The position numbers were made by a program, and so were the translations under genes. From the NCBI RefSeq assembly GCF_009914755.1, contig NC_060943.1: DNA of 64,000 bases. One strand, given 5' to 3'. Source of the stretch: the human T2T-CHM13v2.0 reference genome, Homo sapiens. The notes under the pieces were generated by a model. That model had not been told where the DNA came from and did no database searches. It worked only from the letters and a program-made list of their open reading frames with translations. Shown here piece after piece: positions 1,516 to 17,461 of this stretch (position 1 is the stretch's first letter; every line of letters starts with the position of its first letter).

Positions 1516-1702
1516 CCGCCACGTGTCCTAAGCACAGCAGCTACCAGCAACGCTTGGACCCGCGCCGGGTGCAGCTCTGCGTCCCCGCGGCCGCCCTGCC
1601 TGCTCCGAGGGCTGCGCCAACGATAACGCGCACCTGTGGGCAGGGGCCAGGTGCCGGCACCCGAAGGAGTGCGGCTCGGCGCACGGCGGCCCCTCCTACC
1701 AG
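1516..1702 (+). pseudogene. Pseudoexon A: TIL domain
   Basis: Acceptor ctccctgcatag|, ATCPKHSSYQ..., frameshift, ...CSEGCANDNAHLWAGARCRHPKECGSAHGGPSYQ, donor |gtgagc. Confidence 0.8.
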
Positions 1703-2991
1703 GTGAGCTGGGGGCAGGGTCTTGCTGTTGTGAGGGGGTCGGCCCATCATGGGGGTCAGGGAGCCCCCAAAACATGCCAGGGATGGGCGCCCAATCCGGG
1801 ACACCTATATTCAATTGTGCGGATGGCACATTGTGGGTTCACAATGTGTTGACCTGCTTTATTATTGATGATTCCAATACTGCTACTAGTTACTAAGGTC
1901 ATTCCCTGTGTGCTAAGTGCTTAATAATATTATTATTGGCTGGGTGCGGTGGCTCACGCCTGTAATCTGAGCGCTTTGGGAGGCCGAGGCCGGCGGATCA
2001 CCTGAGGTCAGGAGTGTGAGACCAGCCTGGCCAACACGGCGAAACCCCATTCTACTAAAAACACAAAAATTAGCTGGATGTTGTGGTCCACGCCTATAAT
2101 CTCAGCTACTTGGGAGGTTGAGGCAGGAGAATCGCTTGAGCCCGGAAGGAGGAAGCTGCAGTGAGCCGAGAAGGCGCCACTGTACTCCAGCCTGGGCAAC
2201 AGAGCGAGACTCTGTCTCAAAAAATATATGTATTATTATTATTACTGTCAGCACTATTGACTTTTTAAAATATTAGCCATCACTTATTGAGTGCATAGCC
2301 CCCACTACACACTTTGGCAATGTAATAGTAGTAATAATAACAATAATCAAAACAGCTCATTTTATTTATCATTAATAGGTACAAGACTCTGTCCTAAATG
2401 TTTTAGCATTGTGGTCAGTGCTATTTTTTGTTTATTTTTATTTTTTTATTTTTATTTTATTTATTTATTTATTTTTTTGACACAGGGTCTTGCTCTGTTG
2501 CTGGGGCTAGAGTGCACGGGCGCCATCTTAGCTCACTGCAGCTTCAAATTCCCTGGCTCAAATGATACTCCCCCTCAGTCACCTGAGTAGCTGGGACTTC
2601 AGTTGCGTGCCACCATGTCTGGCTAATTTTTAAATTTTTTGTAGAGATGAGGTCTGACCGTATCGCCCAGGCTGGTCTCAAACTCCTGGACTCAAGGGAT
2701 CCTTCTGCCTCAGCCTCGCAAAGTACTAGGATTACAGGCATCAGCCACCACACCCAAACCATTTGTATTATTTTGATGGCCAACATTTGAGTAGTGATCA
2801 CACATCAGGTCCCATACTGCTAATAATAATAATTAAAATGTGGCCAGGCGCGGCGGCTCATGCCTATAATCCCAGAACTTTGGGAGGCTGAGGCGAGTGG
2901 ATCACCTGAGGTCAGGAGTTCTAGACCAGCCTAGCCAACATGGTAAAACCCAGTCTCTACTAAAAATACAAAAATTAGCTGGGCGTGGTGG

Positions 2992-3448
2992 TGTAGCAGG
3001 ACGAGCTGCAGACAAAACCCCTCAGACACTGAGTTAAAGAAGGAAGGGCTTTATTTGGCCAGGAGCATCGGCAAGACTCACGTCTCAAAAAACCGAGCTC
3101 CCCGAGTGAGCAATTCCTGTCCCTTTTAAGGGCTCGCAACTCTAAGAGGGTCCACGTGAGAGGGTCGTGATCTATTGAACAAGCAGGGGGTATGTGACTG
3201 GGGGCTGCATGCACCAGTAAGAACAGAACAGAACAGGACAGGGATTTTCACAGTGCTTTTCTATACAATGTCTGTAATCTATAGATAACATAACTGGTTT
3301 GGTCAGGGGTGGATCTTTAACTACCAGGCCCAGGGTGTGGCGCCGGGCTGTCTGCCTGTGGATTTCATTTCTGTCTTTTGGCTTTTACTTCTTTCTTTGG
3401 AGGCAGAAATTGGGCATAAGACAATATGAGGGGTGGTCTCCTCCCTTA
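2992..3448 (-). mobile_element. Solo ERV1 LTR (LTR2/HERV-E-like) inserted in an Alu
   Basis: Minus strand reads TAAGGGAGGAGACCACCCCTCATATTGTCTTATGCCC...GCTCGTCCTGCTACA; GTGG target-site duplication at 2988-2991 and 3449-3452. Confidence 0.9.
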
Positions 3449-4714
3449 GTGGCAGGCACCTATAATCCCAGCTACTCGGGGGCTGAGACAGGATAATCAC
3501 CTGAACCCGGGAGGCAGAGGTTGCAGTGAGCCGAGATTGTACCATCGCACTCCAGCCTGGGGGACAAGAGTGAGACTTCGTCTCAAAAAAAAAAATTTTA
3601 AATGTATTGGGGGCTGGGCACAGTGGCTCACACCTGTAATCCCAACACTGTGGGAGGCCAAGGTGGGCGGATCACTTGAGGTCAGGAGTTGGAGACTAGC
3701 CTAGCCAACATGTCAAAACCCTGTCTCTACTGAAAAATACAAAAATAAGCCGGGCATGGTGGCACATGCCTGTAGTCCCAGCTACTTGGGAGGCTGAGGC
3801 ACAAGAATTGCTTGAACCCAGGAGGCAGAGGTTGCAGTGAGCTGAGATAACACCACTGCACTCCAGCCTGGGTGACAGAGCAAGACTCCATCTCAAAAAA
3901 ATAATTAAATGAATAAGCTAAAATATATTGGGTATTTACTTTGTGTTCATGCCTGGGCTAAGCATTTTATGAATAGTAATAATAATAATAATGGCTAATA
4001 TATTAAGAGTTTGGGCATTTACAATGTGCCTTGTGTAAGCATATTAAAATAATGGTGATATTAACAATAATAATGGCTGGTATGTACCAGGCATCTGCTG
4101 TATTGCTGTGCTAACCAGTTAATGATATATAATGATAACCATCGTGAACATATTTTGGTCATTTGCTGCGTGTGTAATCCTGTCATCGGGATAAAAGGTA
4201 ATATTTTCTGAGTGCTTATTATGCCTTGAGCACTGGGCCAGCATGTTATTAATAATGGTATCAGATATATGTCAAGAACTTGGTTACTGTAGGCCAGCTG
4301 GGTGGTGAGAGCCTCATGCGTATGACCGCACTGACCTTCAAACAGCCCTTTGATTGCCTCCAATGTGCAGAGGGGGAAACTGAGGCTACAGGATGCACAG
4401 AGATCTCAAGGGACAGAGCTAGGTCTGGACTCCAGGTCTCTCTGACCCCAAAATTGTGCTGCTAATCACTAGGCTGTGCTTTCCACTGAGAGAAAGCAGG
4501 TGTCACAAGTTTGCTGCCCTCTGGGTAAGGCAGTAGCCTGTCATGATGGTCAGACCCCCAGCTGTTGAATCTGGGCATGGCATTCCTGCCCATCCCATGC
4601 TGAGCCGGCCCCTGAGCCTCTGCTCTTCTGGGTCAGCTGCCAGGCCAGCCTCGGGCCTCCACCAGGCCCTGTTTGGGTCCACCTGGGCTGGGCTGGGCAG
4701 GGCATGCTGATCTG

Positions 4715-4950
4715 GCCTCCGACCTGGTCTGGCTGAACCGATGCACCCGCCGCTGCAGCTGTGACAGAACGGGGCATTTCCGCTGCAGCCCGGCGTGCTG
4801 CCCCACTGGGAAGATCTGTGGTCTGCAGGGTGGCCAGCTGGGCTGCCAGAGCCCCCTGGGCACCTGCATGGCCACTGGAGATCCTCATTACTTCACCTTC
4901 GATGGGGCCATAGCCCACTTCCAGGGCACCTGCACCTACCACCTGGCCTA
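4715..4950 (+). pseudogene. Pseudoexon B: TILa/VWC-like plus VWD N-terminus with GDPH, truncated by (CCAT)n
   Basis: [82 protein letters not shown] at 4877-4888; no intact acceptor or donor seen. Confidence 0.88.
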
Positions 4951-4952
4951 TG

Positions 4953-15600: not shown

Positions 15601-15874
15601 GTAAGTGGGTATTCCCAGGGAGGGTCTTTCTCAGCCTGACCTCCCCAGCTGGCCCAATACCACTTCCAGGATGTCCTCCTAGGTCAACACCACCCAAAGT
15701 GACCCACTGCATGCCTTTCTGGCTAACTGTTCCCGCGAAGAACCTACCTGCTTAAAACTCTGCAATAACAATAACAGATGACACTGAGTGCTATTGCATC
15801 AGTCAGGATGGTCTGGGTTATGCTGAAGTAACGAACTAACCTGAACATGACCCAGCATGACCAAGGTTGTTTCT

Positions 15875-16470
15875 TCATCACTATCTTCGTCACCTTTGTC
15901 ATCATCACAGTCACTATCATCATTACCGTCACCATCACCACCACCACCAGCGTCACCATCACCACCACCACCAGCCTCACCACCACCACCACCACCAGCA
16001 TTACCATCATCACCACCACCACCATCACCACAAGCATTACCATCATCACTACCACCACCATCATTGTTACCACAACCACAACCATCACCACCATCACCAT
16101 CATCATTGTTACCACAGCCACAGCCATCATCACCACTACCATCACCACCATCATCACCATCACCACCACCACCACGACCATCAACATCATCATCACCATC
16201 ATAACCATCACCACCAGCATCACCATCACCACCAGCATCAGCATCACCATCACTACTATAATCACCATCACCATTATCACTACCACCACCATCATTGTTA
16301 CCACAACCACAACTATTGTCATCACCACCACCACCACCCTCACCACTATCATCACTGTCACCATCACCACTATCATTACCATCACCATCAACACCATCAC
16401 ATCACCAACAACATCACCAGCCCTACCACCATCATCATCATTACTATCACCACGACCACCACCACCACCA
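15875..16470. repeat. (CAC/CAT)n trinucleotide low-complexity tract
   Basis: Gives poly-Thr/Ile, poly-His and poly-Pro/Ser ORFs. Confidence 0.95.
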
Positions 16471-16703
16471 TTATCACCACCATGATCACGCCACCAGCAT
16501 TATCACCACCGTGACCACGCCACCACCGTTATCACCACCGTGACCACGCCGCCACCGTTATCACCACCGTGACCACGCCGCCACCGTTAATCACCGCCGT
16601 GACCACGCCGCCACCGTTATCACCGCCGTGACCACGCCGCCACCGTTATCACCGCCGTGACCACGCCGCCACCGTTATCACCGCCGTGACCACGCCGCCA
16701 CCA
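16471..16703. repeat. 29-bp minisatellite, 8 copies
   Basis: Unit TTATCACC(A/G)CCGTGACCACGCCGCCACCG starting at 16471, 16500, 16529, 16558, 16587 (30 bp), 16617, 16646, 16675. Confidence 0.95.
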
Positions 16704-16853
16704 TTATGCTACATCCTGCTGATGCCTCCACCTCCCCTCCTTTGCCTTTATGACTTACCCTTGGCCCCCACAACCCTCTCTCCGCTCCCTTGGTCCTATT
16801 CTGGTTGGAAATGCTCCAGAATAGTAATGCTTGCTCAATTATTTAACTCCTAC

Positions 16854-16985
16854 CTGTTTTCTTCCAGAGCTGGCCTGTCCTCCCCGCAGCAATTACGAGC
16901 TCTGCGGCTCCTCCTGTCCTAGCTCTTGTGCCGAGCCTGCCCTGCCCGACAGCTGCCTGACACCATGCCAGGATGGCTGCCAGTG
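16854..16985 (-). ncRNA. HPN-AS1: Possible first exon of an antisense lncRNA running leftwards (HPN-AS1, from recalled locus layout)
   Basis: Minus-strand donor-like sites at 16853 (CAG|GTAGGA), 16758 (GG|GTAAGT) and 15748 (CAG|GTAGGT). The transcript itself cannot be shown from sequence; identity and boundaries rest on recall. Confidence 0.3.
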
Positions 16986-17461
16986 TGACCCAGGCTTTGT
17001 GCTCAGTGGCATGGACTGCGTGCCCCCAATCCAGTGCAGCTGCTCCATGGGGGGCAGGTACCACCACCCGGCCGGGGAGGCCTTCTGGACTGGGGAGCGC
17101 TGTGAGCAATTCTGCCACTGCCAGGCCTCCACCCACGCCGTGTGCTGCTCCCCGTCCTCCTGTGGGCCGGGGCAGAGATGTGAGACCCTCAGGGGCATCT
17201 TTGGGTGCCACCCACTCTCCCCTGGCATTTATCAAGCAACCATGCACTCACACGTCGCCTCCTTTGACCGGAAGAGTGTTGAGTTTCCAGGCACTTGCGC
17301 TTCTGCTTTTACCAAGTCCTGTGGCTCCTCCAGCTCATTGCGCCTTTTCAAGGTGGAAATTGGGAAGGAGAAACAAGTCCAGCAGTCCCATTGTGTTCAT
17401 TTCAAAGATGTAGGTTCATGGGACCCAGGTTTGTCTGCAGAGAGAGCCCCGACCTGATGAG
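16868..17461 (+). pseudogene. Pseudoexon G: TIL + TILa + VWD N-half (GDPH decayed to MHSH)
   Basis: ttttcttccag|LACPPRSNYELCGSSCPSSCAEPALPDSCLTPCQDGCQCDPGFVLSGMDCVPPIQCSC...SFDRKSVEFPGTC; frameshift near 17370, TAG 17411-17413, donor |gtaagc. Confidence 0.93.

What the first reader, a model, noticed from the sequence alone, without database searches (positions are those of the whole stretch)
1516..17461. Hidden multi-exon FCGBP/zonadhesin/tectorin-like D-domain gene fossil upstream of FXYD3
Seen: seven + strand Cys-rich segments scattered among Alus assemble in the order TIL | TILa-VWD(N) | VWD(C) | C8 | TIL-TILa-VWD(N) | VWD(C)-C8 | TIL-TILa-VWD(N). Most are bounded by polypyrimidine-AG and GT signals with interlocking phases (1-0, 0-?, 0-2, 2-1, 1-0, 0-1, 1-0). 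Every exon has a frameshift, stop or truncation. Known: VWD-C8-TIL-TILa arrays with GDPH are the architecture of FCGBP, zonadhesin and alpha-tectorin (secreted mucus, sperm-egg and matrix proteins). Inference: the introns rule out a retrocopy and the repeats are very divergent from each other, so this looks like an ancient separate family member that died in place, i.e. a candidate unitary gene loss. Exon A has a phase-1 acceptor, so the gene should continue left of the window.
Basis: partly seen in the sequence, partly recalled or inferred. Interest (0 to 1): 0.92.

Follow-up and report, generated by a model that had tools for sequence, protein, structure and literature searches.

The report
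Dead tectorin/FCGBP-like gene beside FXYD3
The stretch upstream of FXYD3 holds the broken remains of a large secreted mucus/matrix-type gene that opossums, echidna, reptiles and probably rabbits still have, so it records a gene lost in our lineage rather than a working human gene.

Summary
Seven + strand exons (1516-17461) encode TIL | TILa-VWD(N) | VWD(C) | C8 | TIL-TILa-VWD(N) | VWD(C)-C8 | TIL-TILa-VWD(N). Six exons carry frameshifts, stops or a truncation. Exon C is ambiguous.

It is not an FCGBP copy. FCGBP is only 39-47% identical in protein and shares no intron similarity. The exons are the 3' half of a gene fossil of at least 32 kb that starts about 14.9 kb left of the window with a NIDO domain. 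Its orthologues are 'IgGFc-binding protein-like' / 'alpha-tectorin-like' proteins:
- full length in marsupials (2447-2630 aa: NIDO plus six D assemblies);
- present in echidna, reptiles and fish (some with a ZP domain);
- largely open in rabbit and pika;
- only short fragments in ten anthropoid primates.

No closer copy was found in the human genome, so it is a unitary pseudogene.

RefSeq already lists the upstream part as two pseudogenes. It models the window part as a protein-coding 'HAVCR1-like' gene, but that CDS is a translated microsatellite. Synteny outside primates could not be tested.

The parts
1516..1702 (+). Exon A: TIL domain of D assembly 4. Phase 1 acceptor, phase 0 donor. Broken by a frameshift near 1581-1587, an internal deletion and loss of 3 of 10 conserved Cys.
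   Evidence: Alignment to rabbit P0001 aa 491-561, 40/64 identical, and to Dromiciops P0020 aa 1377-1446. Splice sites. No Pfam hit in either single frame.
4719..4957 (+). Exon B: TILa plus the start of VWD, with an intact [10 protein letters not shown] motif. There is no recognisable AG acceptor. The 3' part (about 55 codons of VWD) is missing.
   Evidence: Pfam VWD 1.2e-7 and TILa 8.3e-6. 65/98 identical to rabbit aa 544-643 over 4670-4963. Sequence read.
4953..5094 (.). (CCAT)n microsatellite that replaces the rest of exon B.
   Evidence: Tandem Repeats Finder: period 4, 35.8 copies. The alignment to rabbit stops here.
7305..7585 (+). Exon C: C-terminal half of VWD (GLCGNF motif), with a phase 2 donor GG|gt. 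The 5' ~20 codons and the acceptor are degenerate.
   Evidence: Pfam VWD 5.3e-8, profile positions 104-154. 64/99 identical to rabbit. TGA 7319 and frameshift 7358 were called only against rabbit, not against Dromiciops.
9333..9599 (+). Exon D: C8 domain. Phase 2 acceptor, phase 1 donor (weak, gttacg). Frameshift at about 9559.
   Evidence: Pfam C8 3.6e-12. 64/95 identical to rabbit. The frameshift also appears against Dromiciops. Splice sites.
10136..10729 (+). Exon E: TIL-TILa-VWD(N) of D assembly 5, with [10 protein letters not shown]. Phase 1-0. Frameshift at about 10285; 4 of 20 conserved Cys lost.
   Evidence: Pfam TIL 2.1e-9, VWD 5.9e-4, TILa 5.6e-3 in two frames. 150/199 identical to rabbit. 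Groups with rabbit/pika D5 at SH-aLRT 99.
15084..15600 (+). Exon F: VWD(C)-C8 of D assembly 5. Phase 0-1. Two frameshifts (about 15129 and 15349) and TGA 15217.
   Evidence: Pfam C8 3.7e-17. 114/175 identical to rabbit. The same three lesions appear against Dromiciops. 71% nt identity to the upstream copy at -8678..-8408.
15899..16707 (.). (TCACCA)n microsatellite and a 29-bp minisatellite in the F-G intron. The RefSeq CDS of LOC124904701 (15847-16485) is a translation of this repeat.
   Evidence: Tandem Repeats Finder rows 15899-16483 and 16465-16707. The ORF 15832-16485 is a Thr/Ile run with no Pfam hit.
16868..17461 (+). Exon G: TIL-TILa-VWD(N) of a sixth, truncated D assembly. Phase 1 acceptor, canonical gtaagc donor. 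Frameshift at about 17359-17369 and TAG 17411. GDPH is replaced.
   Evidence: Pfam TIL 1.8e-13, TILa 7e-5, VWD 6.9e-4. 130/189 identical to rabbit. 75% aa and 80.5% nt identical to the upstream copy at -2894..-2272.
23963..24285 (+). Probable last exon of the eutherian form of the gene. It has no domain, follows an ag acceptor, and RefSeq transcripts splice it after exon G.
   Evidence: The C-terminal tails of the rabbit and pika models match 23987-24238 and 23960-24085 (E 3e-7 and 1e-6). Exon ends are from the hub table.

Best explanation
Window 1516-17461 is the 3' half of a non-processed, unitary pseudogene of at least 32 kb lying between HPN and FXYD3.

The ancestral gene encoded a secreted protein: a signal peptide, a NIDO domain, then six D assemblies (TIL-TILa-VWD-C8). 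In turtles, snakes and fish a C-terminal ZP domain is also listed among the precomputed Pfam domains. The gene belongs to a vertebrate lineage that databases label 'IgGFc-binding protein-like' or 'alpha-tectorin-like'. That lineage is distinct from FCGBP, TECTA and ZAN.

In the human lineage the gene lost constraint and decayed in place. Frameshifts, stops, lost cysteines, Alu and microsatellite insertions, and deletions of parts of D1, D4 and D6 all accumulated.

The surviving splice sites are still used by low-level transcripts (RefSeq models), and an antisense lncRNA, HPN-AS1, runs across the locus. I infer that no protein is made.

Shown here: the domains, exon structure, lesions, orthology by colinearity and tree, and the absence of a closer human copy. 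Inferred: the loss predates the catarrhine split, the marsupial and rabbit genes are functional, and the protein's role was as a disulfide-linked extracellular polymer.
For: Domains. Pfam finds VWD, C8, TIL and TILa in window ORFs. It finds NIDO (three pieces covering profile positions 7-62, 100-144 and 143-177), VWD, C8, TIL and TILa in upstream ORFs.

Colinearity. Rabbit P0001, the unnamed-source P0008 and Dromiciops P0020 map in order from -14887 to 17446. Identity to rabbit over exons A-G is 627/919.

Orthologues. In one search, 853 proteins had E<=1e-30 among 8000 scored candidates, and 120 were listed. Five marsupial models of 2447-2630 aa with NIDO are 53-58% identical to rabbit. Alligator and turtle are 47-48%. 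Every other placental hit listed is an FCGBP-type protein at 32-35%.

Tree (104 rows, LG+G4, SH-aLRT only). G + upstream copy + macaque 95; + rabbit/pika 99; + marsupials/echidna 98; + reptiles 98. B groups with rabbit D4 at 95. E groups with rabbit/pika D5 at 99. Human FCGBP and TECTA exons fall elsewhere.

No other copy. In own-genome searches with exon G (24 matches) and with P0020 (20 matches), this locus is best at 58-75%, FCGBP scores 38-47% and TECTA 30-38%.

Decay. Lesions are listed under the observation check and (TGA -14350, TAG -13274, frameshift -12627, TGA -2387, TGA -1029, frameshift about -855, TAG -697). Of 80 Cys columns in Dromiciops, rabbit keeps 77 and human keeps 71. There are 94 human-unique changes against 74 rabbit-unique over 873 columns. 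Human against macaque model P0012 is 386/445 aa identical, and that count includes 30 read-through intron codons at 28/30. This is about what unconstrained codons would give at the human-macaque divergence (recalled as about 6-7% nt).

Primates. Only fragment models of 134-345 aa exist in ten anthropoid species, plus the macaque fragments P0010 and P0012 of 413-442 aa.
Against: Synteny of the marsupial, monotreme, reptile and rabbit genes with HPN and FXYD3 was not tested, because no vertebrate genome context was available. Orthology therefore rests on colinearity, identity ranking and the tree.

All orthologues are computer-predicted protein models. The rabbit models are incomplete: P0001 starts inside D2, and P0008 skips the D2 VWD. 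The rabbit gene may itself be decaying. Its exon-G copy has lost 2 of 21 Cys and shows 21 unique changes against 14 in human.

The human excess of unique changes is modest (94 vs 74).

The four human lesions in D3 are absent from the macaque model. No shared lesion proves a loss before the human-macaque split.

The exon C lesions depend on which reference is used (vs 30).

The tree used the quick search without bootstraps, and some rows are partial.

RefSeq labels the window part protein-coding.
Confidence: 0.88

Rival explanations
1. A duplicated pseudogene: a recent or old segmental copy of FCGBP (5 Mb away on the same chromosome) that decayed. On this reading no function was lost.
For: PDB search with exon G gives FCGBP as the best solved relative (7.2e-150 summed over repeats). 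The gene lies on the same chromosome arm as FCGBP. It has the same D-assembly repeat plan.
Against: Protein identity to FCGBP exons is only 38-47%, against 58-75% to this locus's own orthologues and copies. DNA similarity is limited to 75-158 nt exon patches at 68-75%, and the intron matches are Alus. The N-terminus is NIDO, not the FCGBP N-terminal domain. The tree separates the two with starred branches. Marsupials carry both genes: P0022 and FCGBP P0086 in Monodelphis.
Confidence: 0.03
2. A still-functional gene. The locus would make a shortened protein, either the RefSeq 'hepatitis A virus cellular receptor 1-like' CDS at 15847-16485 or a product of one of the long open exons, such as the 209-codon frame of exon G.
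For: RefSeq calls LOC124904701 protein-coding and has spliced models that use the old splice sites (hub table). Exon G and the upstream exon at -9019..-8291 remain open for 209 and 243 codons.
Against: The annotated CDS lies entirely within a (TCACCA)n array in the F-G intron and has no Pfam family. Every D assembly is interrupted. No start codon or signal peptide exon could be aligned; the alignment begins at Dromiciops residue 15 and the rabbit-like N-terminus scores only 43. Human-macaque divergence looks unconstrained.
Confidence: 0.04
3. A pseudogene whose sequence has been taken over for an RNA or regulatory role, as the sense transcript LOC124904701, the antisense HPN-AS1, or the RefSeq enhancer at 1114-1641.
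For: The hub table shows the following: HPN-AS1 exons at 9793-9975 and 16854-16929 on the minus strand, the latter overlapping the 5' end of exon G; an enhancer feature over exon A; and sense transcripts that reuse four ancestral splice sites. HPN-AS1 appears in 25 papers, mostly liver-cancer expression studies (listing and abstracts only).
Against: Nothing here shows that the pseudogene-derived sequence is needed for those RNAs. This reading is compatible with the best explanation rather than an alternative to it, and was not tested.
Confidence: 0.05

Closest known systems
Marsupial 'IgGFc-binding protein-like' and reptile/fish 'alpha-tectorin-like' proteins (e.g. P0020 Dromiciops 2630 aa, P0022 Monodelphis, P0026 alligator, P0024 turtle)
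   Same: They share the exon-by-exon order NIDO, D1-D6. Identity is 36-63% per exon. They fall in the same clades in the tree. Both have a duplicated D2-D3 / D5-D6 unit.
   Different: Those are open reading frames. The human locus is broken throughout and lacks D1 VWD(C)-C8-TIL, the middle of the D4 VWD, and D6 VWD(C)-C8 plus the last TIL. Turtle, snake and fish forms carry a ZP domain (precomputed Pfam list), which was not found in marsupials or in human DNA.
FCGBP (Fc fragment of IgG binding protein; structures 8rde, 8r0t)
   Same: Repeated TIL-TILa-VWD-C8 assemblies, with GDPH in some VWD domains. It is the best solved-structure relative. It lies on the same chromosome.
   Different: Identity is 38-47%. 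The N-terminus differs: PF17517 is listed for fish, whale and parrot FCGBP-type proteins, against NIDO here. The clades are separate. FCGBP is intact in humans.
Alpha-tectorin (TECTA)
   Same: A NIDO N-terminus followed by VWD-C8-TIL assemblies. The non-mammalian orthologues of this fossil also end in a ZP domain, as I recall TECTA does.
   Different: Human TECTA exons are 30-38% identical and fall outside the clades that hold the fossil's exons. No ZP remnant was found downstream of exon G.
RefSeq pseudogenes LOC100420797 and LOC100421064 (hub table)
   Same: By position (-9539..-577 and -13609..-12924) they cover the D2-D3 and NIDO exons of the same fossil mapped.
   Different: They stop at the window edge and are kept as two records. 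Their descriptions were not available to me. The window part is instead annotated as the protein-coding gene LOC124904701.

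Membership tests
D-assembly proteins (VWD-C8-TIL-TILa) | VWD domain | tested here: met
   PF00094 hits in 4 window ORFs. Two are above the curated cut-off (32.6 and 33.8 bits vs 22.9) and two just below (20.6 and 20.4).
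D-assembly proteins (VWD-C8-TIL-TILa) | C8 and TIL domains following VWD in order | tested here: met
   C8 scores 46.8 and 62.8 bits. TIL scores 37.8 and 50.8 bits. All are above cut-off. The order was confirmed by colinear alignment.
D-assembly proteins (VWD-C8-TIL-TILa) | TILa between TIL and VWD | tested here: inconclusive
   TILa scores are 26.3, 23.3 and 17.2 bits, all under the curated 27. However, the regions align to TILa-bearing segments of rabbit and marsupial proteins.
FCGBP orthologue or copy | Groups with FCGBP in a tree and shows high identity to it | tested here: not met
   Identity is 38-47%. The clades are separate. There is no intron similarity.
FCGBP orthologue or copy | FCGBP-type N-terminal domain (PF17517) | tested here: not met
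   The N-terminus of the orthologues and of the human upstream DNA is NIDO, PF06119.
Alpha-tectorin (TECTA) | NIDO domain at the N-terminus | tested here: met
   Three human pieces at -14524..-14351, -13612..-13451 and -13385..-13275 hit PF06119 (8.5e-7, 1.2e-4, 3.1e-5). They lie outside the window.
Alpha-tectorin (TECTA) | C-terminal ZP domain, and grouping with TECTA | tested here: not met
   There was no significant match to the marsupial C-terminal region (D6 VWD(C)-C8 and last TIL) in 17300-26400. No ZP query was run against human DNA. PF00100 is absent from the Pfam hits for Dromiciops P0020 and from the precomputed lists of the other marsupial models. Human TECTA exons fall elsewhere in the tree.
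Unitary (non-processed) pseudogene | Disabling lesions in an intron-bearing gene copy | tested here: met
   In the window there are at least 7 frameshifts, 2-3 stops and 1 truncation. Seven further lesions lie upstream. Splice sites are retained.
Unitary (non-processed) pseudogene | No functional copy of the same gene elsewhere in the genome | tested here: met
   Own-genome searches find nothing closer than FCGBP. Caveat: one search used a stricter first look, so weak matches may be missing.
Unitary (non-processed) pseudogene | Intact orthologue at the syntenic position in another species | not testable with these tools
   Full-length models exist in 5 marsupials, but no genome context is held for them. 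The only adjacency evidence is from a primate: P0148 fuses a TIL fragment with an FXYD domain.

The most novel reading that the evidence does not exclude
The fossil marks a third, unnamed vertebrate member of the tectorin/FCGBP group (NIDO, six D assemblies, ancestrally a ZP polymerisation domain). On this reading the gene lost its ZP domain in mammals and its sixth assembly in the ancestor of primates and lagomorphs. It then died across anthropoid primates, and apparently across most placentals, while staying intact in marsupials. It would be a lineage-wide loss of an extracellular polymer whose tissue and role nobody has yet described.
Probability: 0.55. Interest if true: 0.55.

Novelty: new member of a known kind. 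Interest (0 to 1): 0.42.

Why it matters
First, it corrects the annotation. Three RefSeq records appear to be one dead gene: two pseudogenes and one 'protein-coding' HAVCR1-like model whose CDS is a microsatellite. Expression or variant hits assigned to LOC124904701 should not be read as protein-coding.

Second, it adds a large secreted-matrix gene to the list of human gene losses.

Third, it identifies a conserved but unstudied NIDO-plus-D-assembly gene in marsupials, monotremes, reptiles and fish. That gene's function (mucus, egg coat or inner-ear matrix are guesses from its relatives) could be studied in opossum or rabbit.

The finding is of moderate interest. Unitary pseudogenes are a well-known class, and part of this one is already flagged.

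Tried and rejected
Recent FCGBP duplicate: rejected.

Chance Cys-rich ORFs: rejected by the Pfam and tblastn E-values.

Missing pieces:
- D6 VWD(C)-C8 and the final TIL were sought in 17300-26400 with marsupial C-termini at E<=10 and word size 2. Only chance-level hits appeared, several of them in Alus.
- D1 VWD(C)-C8-TIL was not found between -12296 and -9605 at E<=1.
- The signal-peptide exon was not convincingly found (score 43 against P0008 residues 5-44).

Literature:
- No paper holds LOC100420797, LOC100421064 or LOC124904701.
- 'FCGBPP1' and 'FCGBP pseudogene' have 0 occurrences in the 25 of 27 papers listed.
- Lang et al. 2016 (PMC4948705; passages only) and Zhang et al. 2010 (PMC2864566; main-text term search only, supplements not opened) do not mention this locus.
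- 'alpha-tectorin-like' papers (7 found; listing only) concern other organisms.
- One search was wasted on an unspecific term ('tectal').

No structure prediction or complex job was run, because none would change the verdict.

Full report
**What is there.** Stop-to-stop ORFs on the + strand between 1300 and 17500 include seven Cys-rich stretches. Pfam recognises D-assembly domains in 7 of the 22 frames I submitted:
- TILa + VWD start at 4616-5203
- VWD end at 7305-7937
- C8 at 9325-9657
- TIL at 9931-10344
- TILa + VWD start at 10244-10777
- C8 at 15327-15752
- TIL + TILa + VWD start at 16828-17454

Fourteen frames gave nothing, and one gave a sub-threshold TB hit that I regard as chance. Exon A (both frames) and the VWD(C) part of exon F were among the frames with no hit. 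Their identity rests on alignment to orthologous proteins.

**Exon structure.** Reading the boundaries gives:
- A: ag|1516-1702|gtgagc (phase 1-0)
- C: donor GG|gtgggt at 7585 (phase 2)
- D: ag|9333-9599|gttacg (phase 2-1)
- E: ag|10136-10729|gtactt (phase 1-0)
- F: ag|15084-15600|gtaagt (phase 0-1)
- G: ag|16868-17461|gtaagc (phase 1-?)

I could not find an AG acceptor for B or C. Four of these sites (1516, 1702, 15084, 17461) are exon ends of RefSeq transcript models in the hub's table, so the old splice sites are still used.

**Lesions.** I aligned each exon to rabbit protein P0001 with a frameshift-aware dynamic programme, and again to the marsupial protein P0020.
- Both references give frameshifts in A (about 1581-1587), D (about 9559), E (about 10285), F (about 15129 and about 15349) and G (about 17359-17369).
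- Both give TGA 15217 and TAG 17411.
- Exon B has no frameshift, but it ends at about 4957 where a (CCAT)n array (4953-5094) replaces about 55 codons of VWD.
- Exon C showed TGA 7319 and a frameshift at 7358 against rabbit only. Against Dromiciops it aligned in one frame, so its status is uncertain.
- Human has lost 9 of 80 Cys columns that Dromiciops has. Rabbit has lost 3.

**It is not FCGBP.** The best solved-structure relative of exon G is FCGBP. In the human genome, however, exon G is 75% identical to a copy 19.7 kb upstream, only 39-42% identical to FCGBP exons, and 30-33% identical to TECTA exons (24 matches). At DNA level, exon G matches the upstream copy at 80.5% over 627 nt, confined to the exon. 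FCGBP matches only in 75-158 nt exon patches at 68-75%. All other hits are Alus in the flanks.

**The whole gene.** I fetched 30 kb left of the window. Rabbit P0001, the unnamed-source protein P0008 (92% identical to P0001 where they overlap) and Dromiciops P0020 map colinearly:
- NIDO pieces at -14887..-14717, -14524..-14261, -13612..-13451 and -13385..-13218
- D1 TILa-VWD(N) at -12702..-12296
- D2 at -9605..-9150 and -8999..-8393
- D3 at -2888..-2274 and -1206..-677
- then window exons A-D (D4), E-F (D5) and G (start of D6)

Pfam confirms NIDO, VWD, C8, TIL and TILa directly on the human upstream pieces. The upstream exons carry their own lesions: TGA -14350, TAG -13274, frameshift -12627, TGA -2387, TGA -1029, a frameshift near -855 and TAG -697. 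By position, RefSeq's pseudogenes LOC100421064 and LOC100420797 (hub table) cover the NIDO and D2-D3 parts.

Pieces missing in human:
- D1 VWD(C)-C8-TIL
- the middle of the D4 VWD
- D6 VWD(C)-C8 plus the terminal TIL (no hit in 17300-26400)

The short C-terminal tails of the rabbit and pika models instead match 23960-24238, which is RefSeq exon 23963-24285 (E 3e-7 and 1e-6). The truncated 3' end therefore seems shared by primates and lagomorphs.

**Relatives.**
- With exon G as query (18 proteins at E<=1e-10 of 387 candidates), the top hits are rabbit (72%), pika (67%), macaque fragments (74%, matching the upstream copy), koala and bilby (56-62%), gecko (50%) and echidna (47%).
- With rabbit P0001 as query (853 at E<=1e-30 of 8000 scored, 120 listed), five marsupial models of 2447-2630 aa with NIDO are 53-58% identical and alligator and turtle are 47-48%. 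Turtle, snake and fish relatives also carry a ZP domain. Every other placental listed is an FCGBP-type protein at 32-35%, including mouse Fcgbpl1.
- Among short proteins (14 of 88 candidates), ten anthropoid species have only 134-345 aa fragment models. These include orangutan at 89% to exon G and a douc langur model (P0148) that fuses a TIL fragment to an FXYD domain, which shows adjacency to FXYD3 in that primate.

**Tree.** The tree used TIL-TILa-VWD(N) segments: 104 rows, 193 columns, IQ-TREE quick search, LG+G4, SH-aLRT only. I included all segments covering at least 130 seed positions, plus two partial human pieces.
- Human G groups with the upstream copy and macaque (95), then rabbit/pika (99), marsupials and echidna (98), and reptiles (98).
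- Exon B groups with rabbit D4 (95).
- Exon E groups with rabbit/pika D5 (99).
- Human FCGBP and TECTA exons fall in other groups.
- The D3 and D6 copies cluster by species or lineage. This suggests concerted evolution or repeated duplication.

**Unitary status and timing.** A search of the human genome with Dromiciops P0020 finds this locus best (58-59%). FCGBP scores 38-47% and TECTA 38%, and nothing else comes closer (the tool warned that weak matches may be missing).

In a three-way comparison over 873 columns, human has 94 unique changes and rabbit has 74. That is a modest excess, given that I recall lagomorphs evolving faster than hominoids.

Human against the macaque model P0012 is 386/445 identical. 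This includes 30 read-through intron codons at 28/30, so the coding part is 358/415. That is close to what I expect for unconstrained codons at the recalled 6-7% human-macaque divergence. The four human lesions in D3 are absent from the macaque model. Macaque has lost other conserved cysteines.

I infer relaxed constraint since before the catarrhine split, but no shared lesion proves it. The platyrrhine fragments hint that the loss covers all anthropoids.

**The RefSeq protein-coding model.** The CDS of LOC124904701 (15847-16485) lies inside the F-G intron, in a (TCACCA)n array (15899-16483) next to a 29-bp minisatellite (16465-16707). Its translation is a Thr/Ile run with no Pfam family. I read the 'hepatitis A virus cellular receptor 1-like' name as a low-complexity artefact.

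**Limits.**
- Synteny outside primates, DNA-level selection tests and expression of the intact orthologues could not be examined.
- All orthologues are predicted models. The rabbit ones are incomplete, so 'functional in rabbit' is only an inference from its 77/80 retained cysteines.
- I found no paper describing this locus. I saw only listings, abstracts or term passages. I did not open supplements. GENCODE was not available.

**Verdict.** It needs two refinements. The lost gene is a NIDO-bearing alpha-tectorin-like / FCGBP-like lineage, not FCGBP. And its upstream part is already flagged as pseudogene by RefSeq. It is a new member of a known kind (a unitary pseudogene) and of moderate interest.

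Noticed in passing
window 15847-16707: The RefSeq 'protein-coding' CDS of LOC124904701 (hepatitis A virus cellular receptor 1-like) is a translated (TCACCA)n microsatellite next to a 29-bp minisatellite, inside an intron of the pseudogene. It is probably a spurious gene model.
   Followed up: yes
window 16854-16929 and 9793-9975, minus strand: HPN-AS1 lncRNA exons (hub table) lie antisense to the fossil. The 16854-16929 exon overlaps the acceptor and first 62 bases of exon G, so the lncRNA starts inside pseudogene-derived sequence.
   Followed up: no
window 16868-17461 versus L011:7106-7728 (window -2894..-2272): The D3 and D6 TIL-TILa-VWD(N) exons are 80.5% identical in DNA in human. In the tree the two copies pair within each species or lineage (rabbit, Monodelphis, Dromiciops, alligator, turtle, gecko, primates). 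This points to gene conversion between repeats or to repeated duplication.
   Followed up: partly
window 23963-24285: A domain-free terminal exon is shared between the human RefSeq transcripts and the C-terminal tails of the rabbit and pika protein models. The gene's 3' end therefore seems to have been remodelled (sixth D assembly truncated) before primates and lagomorphs split.
   Followed up: partly
protein P0148 (Pygathrix nigripes model): A 146-aa annotated 'hypothetical protein' joins a TIL fragment 84% identical to exon G with an FXYD (PF02038) domain. This looks like a read-through mis-annotation between the fossil and FXYD3 in another primate.
   Followed up: partly
window 6104-6478: A long (GAAA)n / 141-bp GA-rich array in the B-C intron gives strongly skewed composition (GC skew 0.56 in 6001-7000). 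It produces long Lys/Glu/Arg and Ser/Phe/Leu ORFs on the two strands.
   Followed up: no
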